NCBI GenBank assembly: GCA_021399395.1
Contig: JAAFKJ010000073.1
Coordinates: forward strand, 1 to 36,806
DNA length: 36,806 nucleotides
Source: Candidatus Heimdallarchaeota archaeon
GTDB lineage: Archaea; Asgardarchaeota; Heimdallarchaeia; Heimdallarchaeales; Heimdallarchaeaceae
Direction: 5' to 3'
Shown here one piece after another: positions 34,616-36,806 of the stretch (position 1 is its first letter; each line of letters begins with the position of its first letter). Under the pieces are notes generated by a model, which saw only the letters and a list, made by a program, of their open reading frames with translations, had not been told where the DNA came from and ran no database searches. The position numbers and the translations under genes are program-made.

Positions 34616-35997
34616 TTAACTAAGAAATTGTTTTAATTTACGGATTAATTCATCAATATCTTCTTCTGTATTATAGAAATGAGGACTTATCCTAAGACCA
34701 CCATACCGGCTAGAGATAATGATATTCTCACTATTGAGTTTTTTAGCTAGTTCGATGTTGTTAGGGAGACGAATGTTTACGACACCTGATCTGTGTTTTT
34801 CCTCTAGAGGAGAGATGAACTCATAGTTTCCAAGATTTTGTAGCTCGTGAATTAAATAATTTGTCAGTTTCATAATTCTTTTCTCAACATTTGCTATTCC
34901 ATATTCAAGGATTTTAAGTGGTTTCTTGTACATTTTTTGGTGTTTAAATAAGCCCGTGTAGAATATACGTCGAAGGATTGTAGCTATGCACCAACTTCAT
35001 GGTGATCCTCGGGGTTACATCCGACGAATAATAAAAAGCGACCCGTAAGCATTATTTACGAAGATGTGGGCGGTGTAGGAGGGGATGTGACGTCCCCATG
35101 ATGTGTCCTAGACACTTCTAAAGAATTTGTACAAAATTCATGTCATATCCATACCTTTACTAGAAAAAGAAAATCACTTGGGTTAGTATCCATGAATTTG
35201 GATACACCCTCAACATAGATCAACTCATTTACATTCCAGTATGGCTGATCATGTGAACCTGGATCAACACCATGATATCCAGCAAAAGGTGGATCAAATT
35301 CCGATATGTGGTCTTCTTTAATATAAAAATATCCAGCTTGATTAGCTCCCAGAAGCCATTTTGCCGTTCCACAAGTAAGAAAATCAACTCCCCATTCTTT
35401 GACATCATTAACTAAAGCTCCTGAAGATTGGATCGAATCAATGGCTATCAAAGCATCATTTTCATGAGCAATTTTAGCTATCTCTTTGACATCTGCTCTA
35501 CATCCAGATAACCATTGAACATGTGAGAGAAGTACAAGTTTGGTATTTTTATCTATCTTGTTTGCAAATTCTTCTGCAACTACACAGTTCTTTTGATCTG
35601 GAACAGGTCGATATTCAATATTCTTAGTTTTCTTCAGGAAAAGAGCTTGGTAGACTTGAGCAACATAATCGTTCCAATAACAGACTATGTTACTTTTATC
35701 ATCATAGTTTATCATGTTTGCAGCTAATCTGGAACCAGATGTAACATCTCGTGTAAAAACAATTTCCTCTTCTTTTGCATTTATGAGTTTTCCAAACTTT
35801 CCTCTTGCTTCCTGGAATACTTTGTTTGATTCTTCGAAATCAAATTCGCCCCAATATTCACTATATTCTTGTATTGCTTTTTGAGTTATTCCATGTAAAG
35901 GACCTCTAGAAGCATGGTTTAAGAAAATCTTCTTTTGAAGTGTTGGAGATTCTTCACGAATATTTTGGATGAAATTATCAACCATGTTTAATAACAT
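34616..35997 (-). pseudogene. Class V PLP-dependent aminotransferase-fold gene, split by a frameshift and a ~230-bp insertion
   Basis: 5' part has FLNHASRGP, DSIQSSG, GTAKWLLG; 3' part has ILEYGIANVEKRI, RSGVV, SSRYGGLRISPHFYNTEEDID; together ~380 aa. A linker KGMDM is readable in a shifted frame at 35144-35158. No SufS/IscS-type catalytic Cys loop. Confidence 0.8.
34913..35143 (+). mobile_element. Non-coding, structured insertion of unknown class (non-autonomous element or inserted ncRNA)
   Basis: Removal rejoins ATG GAT ATG|ATC CTT GAA (MDMILE); core 34951-35110 is 77/160 GC (48%) against an AT-rich background; imperfect terminal inverted repeats and several internal helices; no target-site duplication; boundaries uncertain by a few nt. 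Confidence 0.7.
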
Positions 35998-36041: not shown

Positions 36042-36593
36042 CTACTTCTTTGGAAATCTATGTTTTAAGATAGATTCCAGCAGCTGATCAATGATCAATG
36101 AAATTCCTTTCCCAGATTTAGAAGAGACTTCGAAGAAATGGTTTTCAACATTATCTTTTTGCGACGTTCTATTAAGTCTGAAAACATATTCTTTTGCATC
36201 TATGGGATTGAGAGTTCGCTGGCTAGTTGCGCGTAAATCAGTTTTGTTACCAATTAACACCACGGGAACTTTCCCAAAGCCATTGTAATTAATTAATTCT
36301 TCAATCCAAAAAGGTGCATGACGGAAACTATTGGGGCTGCAAATGTCAAAGATTACAAAAGCTCCATGAACCCCTATATAGTGTTTGGATCTATTTGCAT
36401 TGGAGAGTTCCCTGCCAGGAATATCAAAAAGATTAACGGTAATCTGTTCTCCCCCAATTTTTCTTGTAAATTCGATCAAGTCTAGCTTAATAGAAGGTTT
36501 TTTTGTTGCGCCAGGAATATTCTTTTCAAACTGCTGAAAAAAGGAACTTTTCCCAACATTGTAGTCACCTAAAACTAGAATTTTATAGATCAT
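36042..36593 (-). CDS. Rab-like small GTPase with divergent switch regions
   Basis: G1 GDYNVGKS, G2 region PSIKLD, G3 FDIPGR, G4 NKTD, G5 VSSK. Confidence 0.88.
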   Translation of the reverse strand: MIYKILVLGDYNVGKSSFFQQFEKNIPGATKKPSIKLDLIEFTRKIGGEQITVNLFDIPGRELSNANRSKHYIGVHGAFVIFDICSPNSFRHAPFWIEELINYNGFGKVPVVLIGNKTDLRATSQRTLNPIDAKEYVFRLNRTSQKDNVENHFFEVSSKSGKGISLIIDQLLESILKHRFPKK

Positions 36594-36653
36594 TTAAACC
36601 ACTAAAGTGTAACTTTCTCTTTATTATACAAGCTAATAATCTTCCCAACACTT

Positions 36654-36806
36654 TTAAACTCTTGCTCGTATCGCATTCCCCAACATTTCAAAAGCTTGAT
36701 CGATATTTTTACCTGTTTTTGCACTTGTTTCAATAAGATGATTTGTTATATTGAAACTCGCTGTCCCTTTGTTCAAGATATCTACATACTTCTGAGCATC
36801 TTTCAG
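36654..36806 (-). CDS. C-terminal part of a third Rab-like small GTPase (runs off the window edge; absent from the ORF track)
   Basis: Minus-strand frame from the edge reads LKDAQKYVDILNKGTASFNITNHLIETSAKTGKNIDQAFEMLGNAIRARV*, containing G5 ETSAKTG.NI..AF. Confidence 0.85.
   Translation of the reverse strand: MKDAQKYVDILNKGTASFNITNHLIETSAKTGKNIDQAFEMLGNAIRARV

What the first reader, a model, noticed from the sequence alone, without database searches (positions are those of the whole stretch)
34913..35143. ~230-bp structured non-coding element inserted antisense into a PLP-enzyme gene, without target duplication
Seen in sequence: the segment interrupts the gene at MDM|ILE, has a 48% GC core, and can pair over much of its length on the + strand. 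Terminal helix: UUGUACA(34926-32)/UGUACAA(35128-34), UUUUUUGG(34933-40)/CUAAAGAA(35118-25), UGUUUA(34941-46)/UAGACA(35109-14). Inner closing helix: GCCCGUGU(34952-59)/AUGUGGGC(35064-71). Long arm: CGUC-GGA-UGUAGCU(34968-85)/GGUUACA-UCC-GACG(35013-26), carrying the hairpin CACCA/UGGUG. Further hairpins: CGUAA/UUACG(35044-60) and GGGGAUG-UGA-CGUCCCC(35081-97). Many of these pairs are G-U on + and would be A-C mismatches on -, pointing to selection on a single-stranded + molecule antisense to the host mRNA. I recognise no known RNA family. Inference: a mobile structured RNA or non-autonomous element that integrates without TSD. Candidates are an IS200/IS605 derivative carrying an omega-RNA-like scaffold, an IS110/IS1111 bridge-RNA-type element, a retron-like ncRNA with a1/a2 ends, or a new class.
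Basis: partly seen in the sequence, partly recalled or inferred. Interest (0 to 1): 0.85.

Follow-up and report, generated by a model that had tools for sequence, protein, structure and literature searches.

The report
Gene-less transposon carrying a guide-RNA scaffold
A 231-base gene-less mobile element that has kept the ends and the guide-RNA scaffold of a TnpB-type insertion sequence has landed in, and broken, an aminotransferase gene of a Heimdall-type Asgard archaeon; this kind of element is already known, so the case is fairly ordinary.

Summary
A 231-nt insert (window 34917-35147, + strand) splits a class-V aminotransferase gene that is intact in 17 same-genus genomes. It is not a new RNA class. 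It is a multi-copy, non-autonomous element: 4 full copies in this genome, and matches in 15 of 25 genomes of the genus. Its 3' half is homologous to the 3' ends of tnpB genes in the same genome. A 70-nt two-hairpin module is shared, with 9 of 17 pairs showing compensatory changes across families, which fits an omega-RNA scaffold. Three independent empty sites show insertion exactly 3' of (T)TATA. There is no target duplication, apart from an unresolvable ATA shared by the target and the right end. The best reading is a PATE/MITE-like "standalone omega-RNA" derivative of a tnpB-only (IS1341-type) IS200/IS605-superfamily element. The window copy looks dead: its target motif is mutated, and the host gene also carries a 7-nt deletion. 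Several points remain open. No Y1 TnpA was found in any of 25 genus genomes, although one genome has near-identical copies. The ends look like imperfect inverted repeats. No full-length parent with these ends was found. No RNA data exist.

The parts
34912..34916 (+). Target / TAM-like motif abutting the left end. It reads TTTTA here; the family consensus is TTATA.
   Evidence: In 20 aligned copies the five flank positions are T 17/20, T 20/20, A 19/20, T 19/20, A 20/20. The window copy is the only one with T at the third position. The motif is kept once in the empty sites.
34917..35147 (+). The non-autonomous element itself (231 nt), running from left end to right end. It is antisense to the host gene.
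   Evidence: Boundaries come from 20 copies with unrelated flanks and three empty sites. In public-run contigs, other flanks diverge after 35147 and before 34915-34917 (table 7).
34917..34940 (+). Left-end terminus: a fast-evolving hexamer (34917-34922), then a T-run, GTACA and TTTTTTGG. This is the inverted-repeat-like partner of the right end.
   Evidence: Alignment A1 columns 1-26. It is 96.8% paired with the right end, with no covariation. The tnpB elements of this genome have the same layout: TTATG, 6 variable nt, then TTTTGTCATG.
34943..34950 (+). TTTAAATA, resembling an archaeal TATA box and facing into the element. It is a possible promoter of the + strand RNA.
   Evidence: It lies in a nearly invariant block of the 20-copy alignment and is also present in the related left ends at C175 and C20. 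The promoter role is inferred; the TATA-box consensus is recalled, not tested.
34968..35026 (+). Long imperfect hairpin (GGA-UGUAGCU / GGUUACA-UCC) carrying the CACCA/UGGUG tip.
   Evidence: The inner part is 98.9% paired with 3 covarying pairs (GC to AU in 5 copies at columns 66/106). The tip is 94.7% paired. The outer CGUC/GACG is only 73.7% paired.
35034..35102 (+). Omega-RNA-like core. It has an outer stem (35043-46 / 35070-73), hairpin 1 (35049-55 / 35061-67, degenerate in this copy) and hairpin 2 (35081-86 / 35092-97). It is a relic of the TnpB C-terminal coding region and reads KSDP-stop here.
   Evidence: Covariance model R1 scores 81.1 bits, E 7.9e-19. On 22 sequences from MITEs and tnpB 3' ends, 94.9% of cells are paired, 9 of 17 pairs have compensatory changes, and 0 of 500 shuffles reach this. 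The homologous tnpB ends read ...NADVNAAYNIL.KSDPKA..VNGVGGYVMYP.
35103..35115 (+). Small hairpin GUGUC-CUA-GACAC.
   Evidence: Alignment columns 198-202 / 206-210. CG changes to UA in 4 copies at each of two pairs.
35123..35147 (+). Right end: the subterminal hairpin GAATTT-GTACA-AAATTC (35123-35139) plus the tail ATGTCATA, which ends in TCATA.
   Evidence: The last 35 nt are almost invariant across 20 copies. The hairpin was read from the sequence and is invariant, so it gives no covariation evidence. An exact 32-nt match occurs in 25 public contigs.
35148..35167 (+). Predicted guide segment of the omega-RNA: host DNA immediately 3' of the right end.
   Evidence: Inferred from the known TnpB/omega-RNA layout (passages read). 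The first 16 nt have no second match with 1 mismatch or fewer in the genome. There are no RNA data.
35148..35997 (-). N-terminal part of the disrupted class-V aminotransferase gene. It carries a 7-nt deletion near 35164 relative to the orthologues.
   Evidence: PF00266, E 1.6e-31, profile 40-229. The deletion shows in the DNA comparison with 10 orthologues. Public-run contigs covering 35119-35700 show 0 differences from the window.
34616..34916 (-). C-terminal part of the same gene, including its stop codon.
   Evidence: PF00266 profile 265-371 and KYNU_C. It is collinear with the orthologues from residue 8 of the ORF.

Best explanation
The segment is a miniature, gene-less derivative of a tnpB-only (IS1341-type) insertion sequence of the IS200/IS605 superfamily. 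Such elements are called PATEs, MITEs or 'standalone omega-RNAs'.

Shown here:
- It is a dispersed repeat.
- It inserted exactly 3' of a (T)TATA motif with no target duplication and broke an aminotransferase gene.
- Its 3' half is homologous to the region spanning the last codons of tnpB and the transposon right end.
- That region carries hairpins conserved through compensatory changes on the tnpB-sense strand.

Inferred:
- An internal deletion removed tnpB and joined the left end, with its TATA-like box, to the omega-RNA scaffold and right end.
- The + strand is transcribed through the right end into the flank (35148 onward), giving an omega-RNA whose guide matches this insertion site.
- A TnpB supplied in trans by one of the many tnpB elements of the genome could use that RNA to cut empty TTATA-plus-flank alleles. 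Repair from an occupied copy would then preserve the element.
- Movement needs a transposase in trans, and none was identified.

This particular copy is probably an inactive fossil. Its target motif has a substitution found in no other copy, it is only 93.5% identical to its nearest relative, and the host gene has since lost 7 more bases.
For: Repeat family:
- 4 full copies in this genome, plus 4 partial copies at contig ends.
- Matches in 15 of 25 genus genomes, up to 15 per genome.
- 20 copies aligned with unrelated flanks.

Insertion and boundaries:
- The host gene gave strong matches in 17 same-genus genomes; 16 are in single open frames and one is cut at a contig end. The junction is collinear with 10 of 10 orthologues examined if 231 nt are removed.
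- Second empty site: C179 occupied ...CCCTTATA[231 nt]AACATTAACAA against the G001 empty site ...CTCTTATA|AACGTTAACAA.
- Third empty site: C40 ...ACTAGTATA[229 nt]TATATTTACC against 4 genomes with ...TATA|TATATTTACC or a close variant.
- The left-flank consensus is TTATA and the right flank is random.

Link to tnpB:
- The core matches the 3' ends of ORFs that carry PF07282 and PF01385.
- The shared 70-nt module is 94.9% paired, against 82.1% in shuffles and 37-52% when the partners are slid. 9 of 17 pairs have compensatory changes.
- Model R1 finds 30 copies in the genome: 7 behind full-length tnpB, 5 behind tnpB cut by a contig end, 5 at contig starts, and 13 with no tnpB despite 1.7 kb of upstream sequence.
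- Intermediate internal-deletion derivatives exist, at C174:92094 and C197.
- The left-end layout is shared with the tnpB elements.
- All 15 MITE-bearing genomes also carry this TnpB clade. So do 5 of the 10 MITE-free genomes. Related genomes are not independent samples.

Strand: conserved G-U pairs lie on the + strand, which is the tnpB-sense strand.

Literature (passages read):
Against: - No full-length tnpB element with this family's own left and right ends was found. None in the genome, 0 of 25 public contigs holding the right end, and 0 of 4 metagenome contigs. Homology to tnpB elements therefore rests on the 70-nt core and on the similar layout of the ends.
- No Y1 TnpA (PF01797) was found in 0 of 25 genus genomes (72-92% complete). 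The same search found it in 7 of 47 genomes of the order. Yet genome G018 has three copies with 0-1 differences at different sites.
- The left end has no hairpin like the one at the right end. If the target's TATA is counted, the two ends read as a 17/20 inverted repeat. This is unusual for IS200/IS605, and the literature reports symmetric ends for DDE-associated TnpBs.
- A 3-bp ATA duplication cannot be told apart from 'no duplication'.
- There is no RNA evidence at all, and no Rfam family matches.
- The single-sequence fold is only marginally better than shuffles.
- Hairpin 1 is degenerate in the window copy.
Confidence: 0.82

Rival explanations
1. The element is a classical inverted-repeat MITE moved by a double-strand-binding transposase (DDE, serine or other) whose parent transposon merely carries tnpB as cargo. 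It would then not be a Y1-type IS200/IS605 element. The omega-RNA part stays the same; only the mobilisation chemistry differs.
For: The ends are symmetric: TATA-ACATGCTTTTTGTACA against the reverse complement of the right end, TATG-ACATGAATTTTGTACA, is 17/20 (read). No Y1 TnpA was found in 0 of 25 genus genomes. [quoted passage not shown]
Against: A TA duplication flush with the inverted repeats predicts a 233-nt net insertion. All three empty sites refute this. In this 81.8%-complete genome there is no DDE_3 and no Cas1. The IS607-like elements that are present have unrelated ends. Target preference is one-sided: T 17/20 upstream against A 9/20 downstream. The sister tnpB family has TTATG on the left and ...CATCAT on the right, with no direct repeat.
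Confidence: 0.1
2. The element, or at least this copy, is an inert fossil. It is a decayed remnant with no RNA function, and its apparent structure conservation reflects shared descent and the former coding constraint of tnpB.
For: The target motif is mutated only in this copy. Hairpin 1 is degenerate here. The copy is 93.5% or less identical to the others. The host gene has decayed further. There is no RNA evidence.
Against: Compensatory changes keep both hairpins paired across families. This holds in orphan copies, where the reading frame is already broken (KSDP-stop). The left end, the TATA-like box and the last 35 nt are nearly invariant, while the adjacent hexamer drifts freely. Near-identical copies in G018 indicate recent activity of the family.
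Confidence: 0.06
3. It is a free-standing structured RNA of another kind, such as an IS110 bridge RNA, a retron ncRNA, a self-splicing element or a new class.
For: It is structured, strand-specific and matches no Rfam family.
Against: No IS110 transposase and no reverse transcriptase were found in the genome. No tRNA or Rfam match was found. The core is homologous to tnpB 3' ends. The element lies antisense to a host gene that is also frameshifted.
Confidence: 0.01
4. It is an assembly chimera: the repeat was wrongly placed into the gene.
For: No public-run contig bridges either junction by the tool's 31-letter rule. Contigs stop 28-29 nt inside the element.
Against: Contigs from 4 runs of 2 studies run from unique flank into the element without a single difference on both sides. 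No joint that skips the element was seen. Both gene halves lie on one contig in the expected order. The same family shows clean occupied and empty pairs elsewhere.
Confidence: 0.01

Closest known systems
PATEs / standalone omega-RNAs of IS200/IS605-family OMEGA systems (Meers et al. 2023 preprint 10.1101/2023.03.14.532601; Altae-Tran et al. 2023, PMC10691335; passages read)
   Same: It has no protein gene and keeps both transposon ends. It carries the RNA scaffold that overlaps the tnpB 3' end and the right end. It is multi-copy in genomes that also hold tnpB elements. It inserts next to a short conserved motif without target duplication. The guide would be the flank beyond the right end.
   Different: The described cases are bacterial (Geobacillus and others) and have a cognate Y1 TnpA in the genome. 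Here the host is a Heimdall-type archaeon, no Y1 TnpA was found in 25 genus genomes, the ends look like imperfect inverted repeats, and neither a full-length parent nor RNA has been seen.
IS1341-type (tnpB-only) elements of archaea with sense-overlapping ncRNAs (Gomes-Filho et al. 2015; seen only as a reference entry)
   Same: The tnpB elements of this genome that share the core are solo tnpB genes. Their conserved structured region spans the last tnpB codons.
   Different: The window element has lost tnpB altogether.
Archaeal TnpB with TTTAA TAM from Sulfolobus islandicus (10.1101/2023.03.06.531077; search listing only, TAM recalled)
   Same: An archaeal TnpB system with an A/T-rich 5-nt motif next to the left end.
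   Different: The motif here is TTATA (TTATG in the sister family). No functional test has been done.
IS630-linked TnpB transposons with symmetric ends (PMC10691335, section read)
   Same: The ends are symmetric-looking and the target is A/T-rich and contains TA.
   Different: No DDE_3 transposase is present in the genome. A flush TA duplication is refuted by three empty sites.

Membership tests
Non-autonomous IS200/IS605-superfamily derivative (PATE / standalone omega-RNA) | Sequence homology to the tnpB 3' end / omega-RNA region of tnpB-bearing elements | tested here: met
   A 70-nt core is shared with 7 full-length tnpB elements of the genome. R1 scores 81.1 bits against 81-87 bits for the tnpB-linked copies.
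Non-autonomous IS200/IS605-superfamily derivative (PATE / standalone omega-RNA) | Conserved RNA secondary structure on the tnpB-sense strand | tested here: met
   94.9% of cells paired, 9 of 17 pairs compensatory, 0 of 500 shuffles as high, and slid controls at 37-52%.
Non-autonomous IS200/IS605-superfamily derivative (PATE / standalone omega-RNA) | Insertion 3' of a short conserved motif (TAM) abutting the left end, without target-site duplication | tested here: met
   TTATA in 17-20 of 20 copies at each position. Three empty sites. Caveat: a 3-bp ATA duplication cannot be distinguished.
Non-autonomous IS200/IS605-superfamily derivative (PATE / standalone omega-RNA) | No protein-coding capacity | tested here: met
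   No ORF of 30 aa or more lies wholly within 34917-35147. The TnpB relic reads KSDP-stop.
Non-autonomous IS200/IS605-superfamily derivative (PATE / standalone omega-RNA) | Subterminal hairpins at both ends on the same strand | tested here: inconclusive
   The right end has GAATTT-GTACA-AAATTC, 8 nt from the tip, but it is invariant. The left end has no equivalent hairpin near its tip, only the long arm 52 nt further in.
Non-autonomous IS200/IS605-superfamily derivative (PATE / standalone omega-RNA) | A Y1 (HUH) TnpA available in the genome to move it in trans | tested here: not met
   PF01797 was found in 0 of 25 genus genomes and in 7 of 47 genomes of the order; the controls responded. The genomes are 72-92% complete, so absence is not proven.
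Non-autonomous IS200/IS605-superfamily derivative (PATE / standalone omega-RNA) | Full-length parent with the same left and right ends | tested here: not met
   None was found in the genome, in 25 public contigs or in 4 metagenome contigs. Related ends sit at contig breaks.
Non-autonomous IS200/IS605-superfamily derivative (PATE / standalone omega-RNA) | Transcript that runs through the right end into a 16-20-nt guide | not testable with these tools
   No RNA run was listed for this stretch.
TA-duplicating inverted-repeat MITE (IS630/Tc1-mariner type) | TA duplication flush with terminal inverted repeats | tested here: not met
   This predicts a 233-nt net insertion. The observed values are 231, 231 and 229 nt with a single TATA left in the empty sites.
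TA-duplicating inverted-repeat MITE (IS630/Tc1-mariner type) | Cognate DDE transposase in the genome | tested here: not met
   PF13358 gave 0 matches in G000. Other DDE families were not searched.
IS607-type (serine recombinase) derivative | Ends shared with a serine-recombinase element of the genome | tested here: not met
   There are 4 Resolvase matches. The IS607-like elements at C28, C195 and C132 have unrelated ends.
IS110 bridge-RNA element / retron | Neighbouring or genomic IS110 recombinase or reverse transcriptase | tested here: not met
   PF01548 and PF00078 each gave 0 matches in G000.
Any curated RNA family (Rfam 15) | Covariance-model match | tested here: not met
   No relevant match at E of 10 or less on the element, nor at E of 1 or less on three tnpB/right-end loci.

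The most novel reading that the evidence does not exclude
In this Heimdall-type genus, solo tnpB elements (up to 24 matches per genome) and their omega-RNA-only miniatures are still moving; one genome has three copies with 0-1 differences. Yet no Y1, DDE_3 or Cas1 partner is detectable, and the ends are inverted-repeat-like. They would then be mobilised by an unrecognised transposase, or by a TnpB-dependent route that needs no TnpA.
Probability: 0.13. Interest if true: 0.7.

Novelty: new member of a known kind. Interest (0 to 1): 0.3.

Why it matters
The finding explains a puzzling structured insert as an ordinary class of selfish DNA, and it documents that class in Asgard (Heimdall-type) archaea. 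It also yields several usable results. One is an omega-RNA scaffold family absent from Rfam, with a working covariance model. Another is a candidate TAM (TTATA, or TTATG in the sister family) for a large archaeal TnpB clade. The third is a clean natural case of guide-RNA-only elements outnumbering or equalling tnpB-linked ones: 13 orphans against 7-12 linked copies in one genome. The unexplained absence of any Y1 transposase across 25 genomes bears on the open question of how tnpB-only elements spread. For annotation, the aminotransferase should be called a pseudogene.

Tried and rejected
- Rfam gave nothing relevant on the element and flanks (only a chance lncRNA match at E 0.4 outside the element) or on three tnpB/right-end loci. 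ARAGORN found no tRNA or tmRNA in the window.
- Single-sequence folding is only marginally better than shuffles.
- Parent search. Contig-end k-mer walking found no contig continuing the broken ends. nhmmer with the left end found only the 6 known loci. Regions fetched from G013, G005, G014 and G034 were contig ends or held no tnpB. The exact right-end pattern in genome contigs gave 25 loci. None has tnpB upstream of the element, and the one tnpB hit (L094) lies elsewhere on its contig. The metagenome scan gave 4 loci, all miniature copies or contig ends.
- Y1-bearing elements of sister genera share neither ends nor a close TnpB (22% identity) with this family.
- The IS607-like elements of the genome have unrelated ends.
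- The TA-duplication model was rejected on three empty sites.
- I considered and dropped an RNA-level intron (BHB or group I/II). The structure is on the antisense strand and the gene is also frameshifted.
- RNA evidence: no RNA holder was listed.
- Junction support: no public-run contig bridges a junction by the 31-letter rule, and no contig joins across the element. That Logan contigs break at repeats near k = 31 is recalled, not tested.
- Supplementary files of the papers were not opened. The SI of PMC10691335 (transposon ends, Asgard groups) may bear on the end-symmetry question.
- The guide has no second target in the genome, so no trans-target role is proposed.
Full report
WHAT IS THERE. 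The minus strand of window 34616-35997 encodes a class-V aminotransferase in two pieces. The N part matches PF00266 at profile positions 40-229 and the C part at 265-371. Seventeen same-genus genomes gave strong matches to the N part (E 1e-112 or better); 16 sit in single open frames of 330-413 aa, and one (G003) is cut at a contig end. An 18th genus genome (G007) gave only a weak paralogue match. In all 10 orthologues examined at the DNA level, the two parts are separated by exactly 21 nt, and the junction reads ...SDFLFYVSSKGMD-I-ILEYG or a close variant. The window reads ...AGT AAA GGT ATG GA|[insert]|T..ATC CTT GAA, so the net insertion is 231 nt. The gene is also 7 nt shorter than every orthologue examined, about 20 nt upstream (gene sense) of the insert. 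That is why an ORF finder reads LVKVWI-stop. Public-run contigs covering 35119-35700 are identical to the window, so the deletion is not peculiar to this assembly. The gene is a pseudogene with two lesions.

IT IS A REPEAT FAMILY.
- The segment has three other full copies in the same genome: C179 (93%), C40 (91%) and C7 (82%). Partial copies sit at four contig ends.
- It matches in 15 of 25 genomes of the genus, with up to 15 matches per genome.
- Contigs holding the exact right end are labelled Candidatus Heimdallarchaeota MAGs in public records.
- Twenty full copies with unrelated flanks align end to end with 87% mean column identity.
- The right end is ...TTCATGTCATA, followed by random sequence.
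- On the left, the five bases before the element are T 17/20, T 20/20, A 19/20, T 19/20 and A 20/20.
- The window copy is the only one with T in place of the A at the third position.

EMPTY SITES. There are three independent comparisons.
(i) The host gene against its orthologues (above).
(ii) The C179 copy...CCCTTATA[231 nt]AACATTAACAA, against G001...CTCTTATA|AACGTTAACAA.
(iii) The C40 copy...ACTAGTATA[229 nt]TATATTTACC, against G036, G001, G017 and G006. All four have ...TATA directly followed by the right flank.

The element therefore sits exactly 3' of (T)TATA, and that motif remains once in empty sites. A model with a TA duplication flush with the inverted-repeat-like ends predicts 233 nt and is refuted. 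The right end also finishes in ATA, so 'no duplication' and 'a 3-bp ATA duplication' cannot be separated by sequence. Two facts favour no duplication. The two copies with a variant left motif keep a canonical right ATA. The sister tnpB family has TTATG on the left and ...CATCAT on the right, with no direct repeat.

LINK TO tnpB AND THE RNA.
- The core (window 35034-35102) matches the 3' ends of ORFs reading ...NADVNAAYNIL.KSDPKA..VNGVGGYVMYP. These ORFs are TnpB: PF07282 and PF01385, 20 zinc-ribbon matches in the genome, and 17 OrfB_IS605 matches. In the window the relic reads KSDP-stop.
- I aligned 22 sequences: 11 miniature copies, 2 right ends at contig starts (C92, C91), 7 tnpB 3' ends and 2 copies of a second orphan family.
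- I then tested one structure on them: an outer 4-bp stem enclosing a 7-bp hairpin, followed by a 6-bp hairpin.
- 94.9% of cells pair, against 82.1 ± 1.2% in shuffles (0 of 500 reach it) and 37-52% when partners are slid.
- 9 of 17 pairs have changes on both sides. For example, hairpin 1 is CAUCUU/AAGAUG, CACUAC/GUAGUG, CUUUAC/GUAAAG or CCAUAC/GUAUGG in different families.
- This structure is maintained inside a coding region and in orphans whose frame is broken. That is the expected signature of the omega-RNA scaffold overlapping the tnpB 3' end.
- A covariance model built from this alignment (R1) finds 30 copies in the genome. Seven lie behind full-length tnpB, 5 behind tnpB cut by a contig end, 5 at contig starts, and 13 have no tnpB within 1.7 kb upstream.
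- Two copies (C174:92094, C197) keep only N- and C-terminal TnpB fragments. Internal deletion series therefore exist.
- The left-end layout is shared by the miniature family and the tnpB elements: TTAT(A/G), six fast-evolving bases, a T-run plus GTACA/GTCATG, then an A/T box.

I tested it on 19 distinct copies.
- Terminal helices: 96.8% paired, but no covariation. They are simply the two ends.
- Inner long arm: 98.9% paired, with three covarying pairs.
- CACCA/UGGUG: 94.7% paired.
- GGGGAUG/CGUCCCC: 97.7% paired.
- UGUUUA/UAGACA: 86.8% paired, but it competes with a covarying local hairpin.
- CGUC/GACG: 73.7% paired.
- The 'inner closing helix': 75% paired.
- CGUAA/UUACG: 62.6% paired. It is not conserved.
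The + strand is the tnpB-sense strand.

MECHANISM.
Shown: a gene-less dispersed repeat; site-specific insertion without duplication; homology and conserved structure shared with tnpB 3' ends.

Inferred, from the published behaviour of TnpB systems (passages read):
- The + strand is transcribed, perhaps from the conserved TTTAAATA at 34943-34950.
- The transcript runs through the right end and carries 16-20 nt of flank (35148 onward) as guide.
- A TnpB made elsewhere in the genome uses it to cut empty TTATA-plus-flank alleles, so that repair restores the element.
- The guide of this copy has no other match in the genome, as expected for a self-locus guide.
- Transposition itself needs an enzyme in trans.

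WHAT DOES NOT FIT.
- PF01797 (Y1 TnpA) is found in 0 of 25 genus genomes, although the same search finds it in 7 of 47 genomes of the order and in control genomes. Yet the TnpB clade is present in 20 of 25 genus genomes, with up to 24 matches, and G018 holds three miniature copies with 0-1 differences at different sites.
- DDE_3, Cas1, IS110 transposase and RT are absent from this 81.8%-complete genome.
- Four resolvase genes exist, but the IS607-like elements have unrelated ends.
- The ends read as a 17/20 inverted repeat if the target TATA is included. This is unlike textbook IS200/IS605.
- No full-length parent with these ends was recovered.
- MAG incompleteness and repeat-induced contig breaks could hide both a parent and a transposase.

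PUBLIC READS.
- Contigs from four runs of two studies extend from unique flank 28-29 nt into the element on each side without differences. None meets the 31-letter bridging rule, and none joins across the element.
- Summed word depth over 35060-35147 is about 470-520 in run X1, against 12-15 on the flanks. The right end is therefore highly repeated in those samples.
- No RNA run was listed.

VERDICT. However, the class (PATE / standalone omega-RNA) is already described, and IS200/IS605 elements are reported as the most widespread IS family in archaea, including Asgard genomes (PMC13343696, passages read). I call it a new member of a known kind, with interest about 0.3. The genus-wide lack of a recognisable transposase is the only thread that could lead somewhere new.

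Noticed in passing
window about 35160-35175 (minus-strand gene): The aminotransferase gene is 7 nt shorter than all 10 orthologues examined (TTTCTTTTT-------CTAGTAAAGG). This second, frameshifting lesion lies about 20 nt from the insertion. Public-run contigs agree with the window here.
   Followed up: yes
G000 contigs C171:20541-20606, C23:10665-10730, C136:53942-54007, C132:12384-12451: A second family of gene-less omega-RNA elements, derived from the C131-type tnpB elements. Their right end is ...CATGACAAAAAC.CATCAT and their left-flank motif is TTATG.
   Followed up: partly
G000 C174:92094-92163 and C197:6278-6347: Internal-deletion intermediates. Only short N-terminal (residues 1-56 or 1-11) and C-terminal TnpB fragments remain upstream of the omega-RNA core.
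   Followed up: partly
G000 C28:23600-26400, C195 (reverse strand), C132:61000-66000: IS607-like elements: a 221-aa serine recombinase followed by a roughly 660-aa TnpB-like protein, about 77% identical to each other. Their ends are unrelated to the element studied.
   Followed up: partly
L058 (G014:C81) locus positions 1302-1838: A copy of the miniature element interrupted at hairpin 1 by 315 nt. The last 80-88 nt of this stretch are 89-95% identical to the right end of the IS607-like elements; that piece also occurs alone at G000 C18, C152, C5 and C163. This is either a nested or chimeric miniature element, or a third orphan right-end family.
   Followed up: partly
genus-wide (25 genomes) and order-wide (47 genomes): Y1 TnpA (PF01797) is absent from all 25 genomes of the genus but present in sister genera of the same family. 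The solo-tnpB clade is found in 20 of the 25 genus genomes.
   Followed up: partly
window 34917-34922 and the equivalent six bases in the tnpB elements: The first six bases inside the left end evolve much faster than the rest of the element, both in the miniature family and in the tnpB family. They sit next to an almost invariant target motif.
   Followed up: no
window 34931-34933 (minus strand): The left end supplies an in-frame ATG, so the C-terminal 98 residues of the aminotransferase form a 105-aa ORF (MYKKPLK-ILEYG...). This is probably meaningless, but it would be mis-annotated as a short gene.
   Followed up: no
window 36042-36806 (minus strand): Two adjacent small Ras/Rab-like GTPase ORFs. 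One is a complete 183-aa ORF with the P-loop GDYNVGKS; the other is a C-terminal fragment cut off at the window end (36654-36806). Such genes are typical of Asgard genomes.
   Followed up: no
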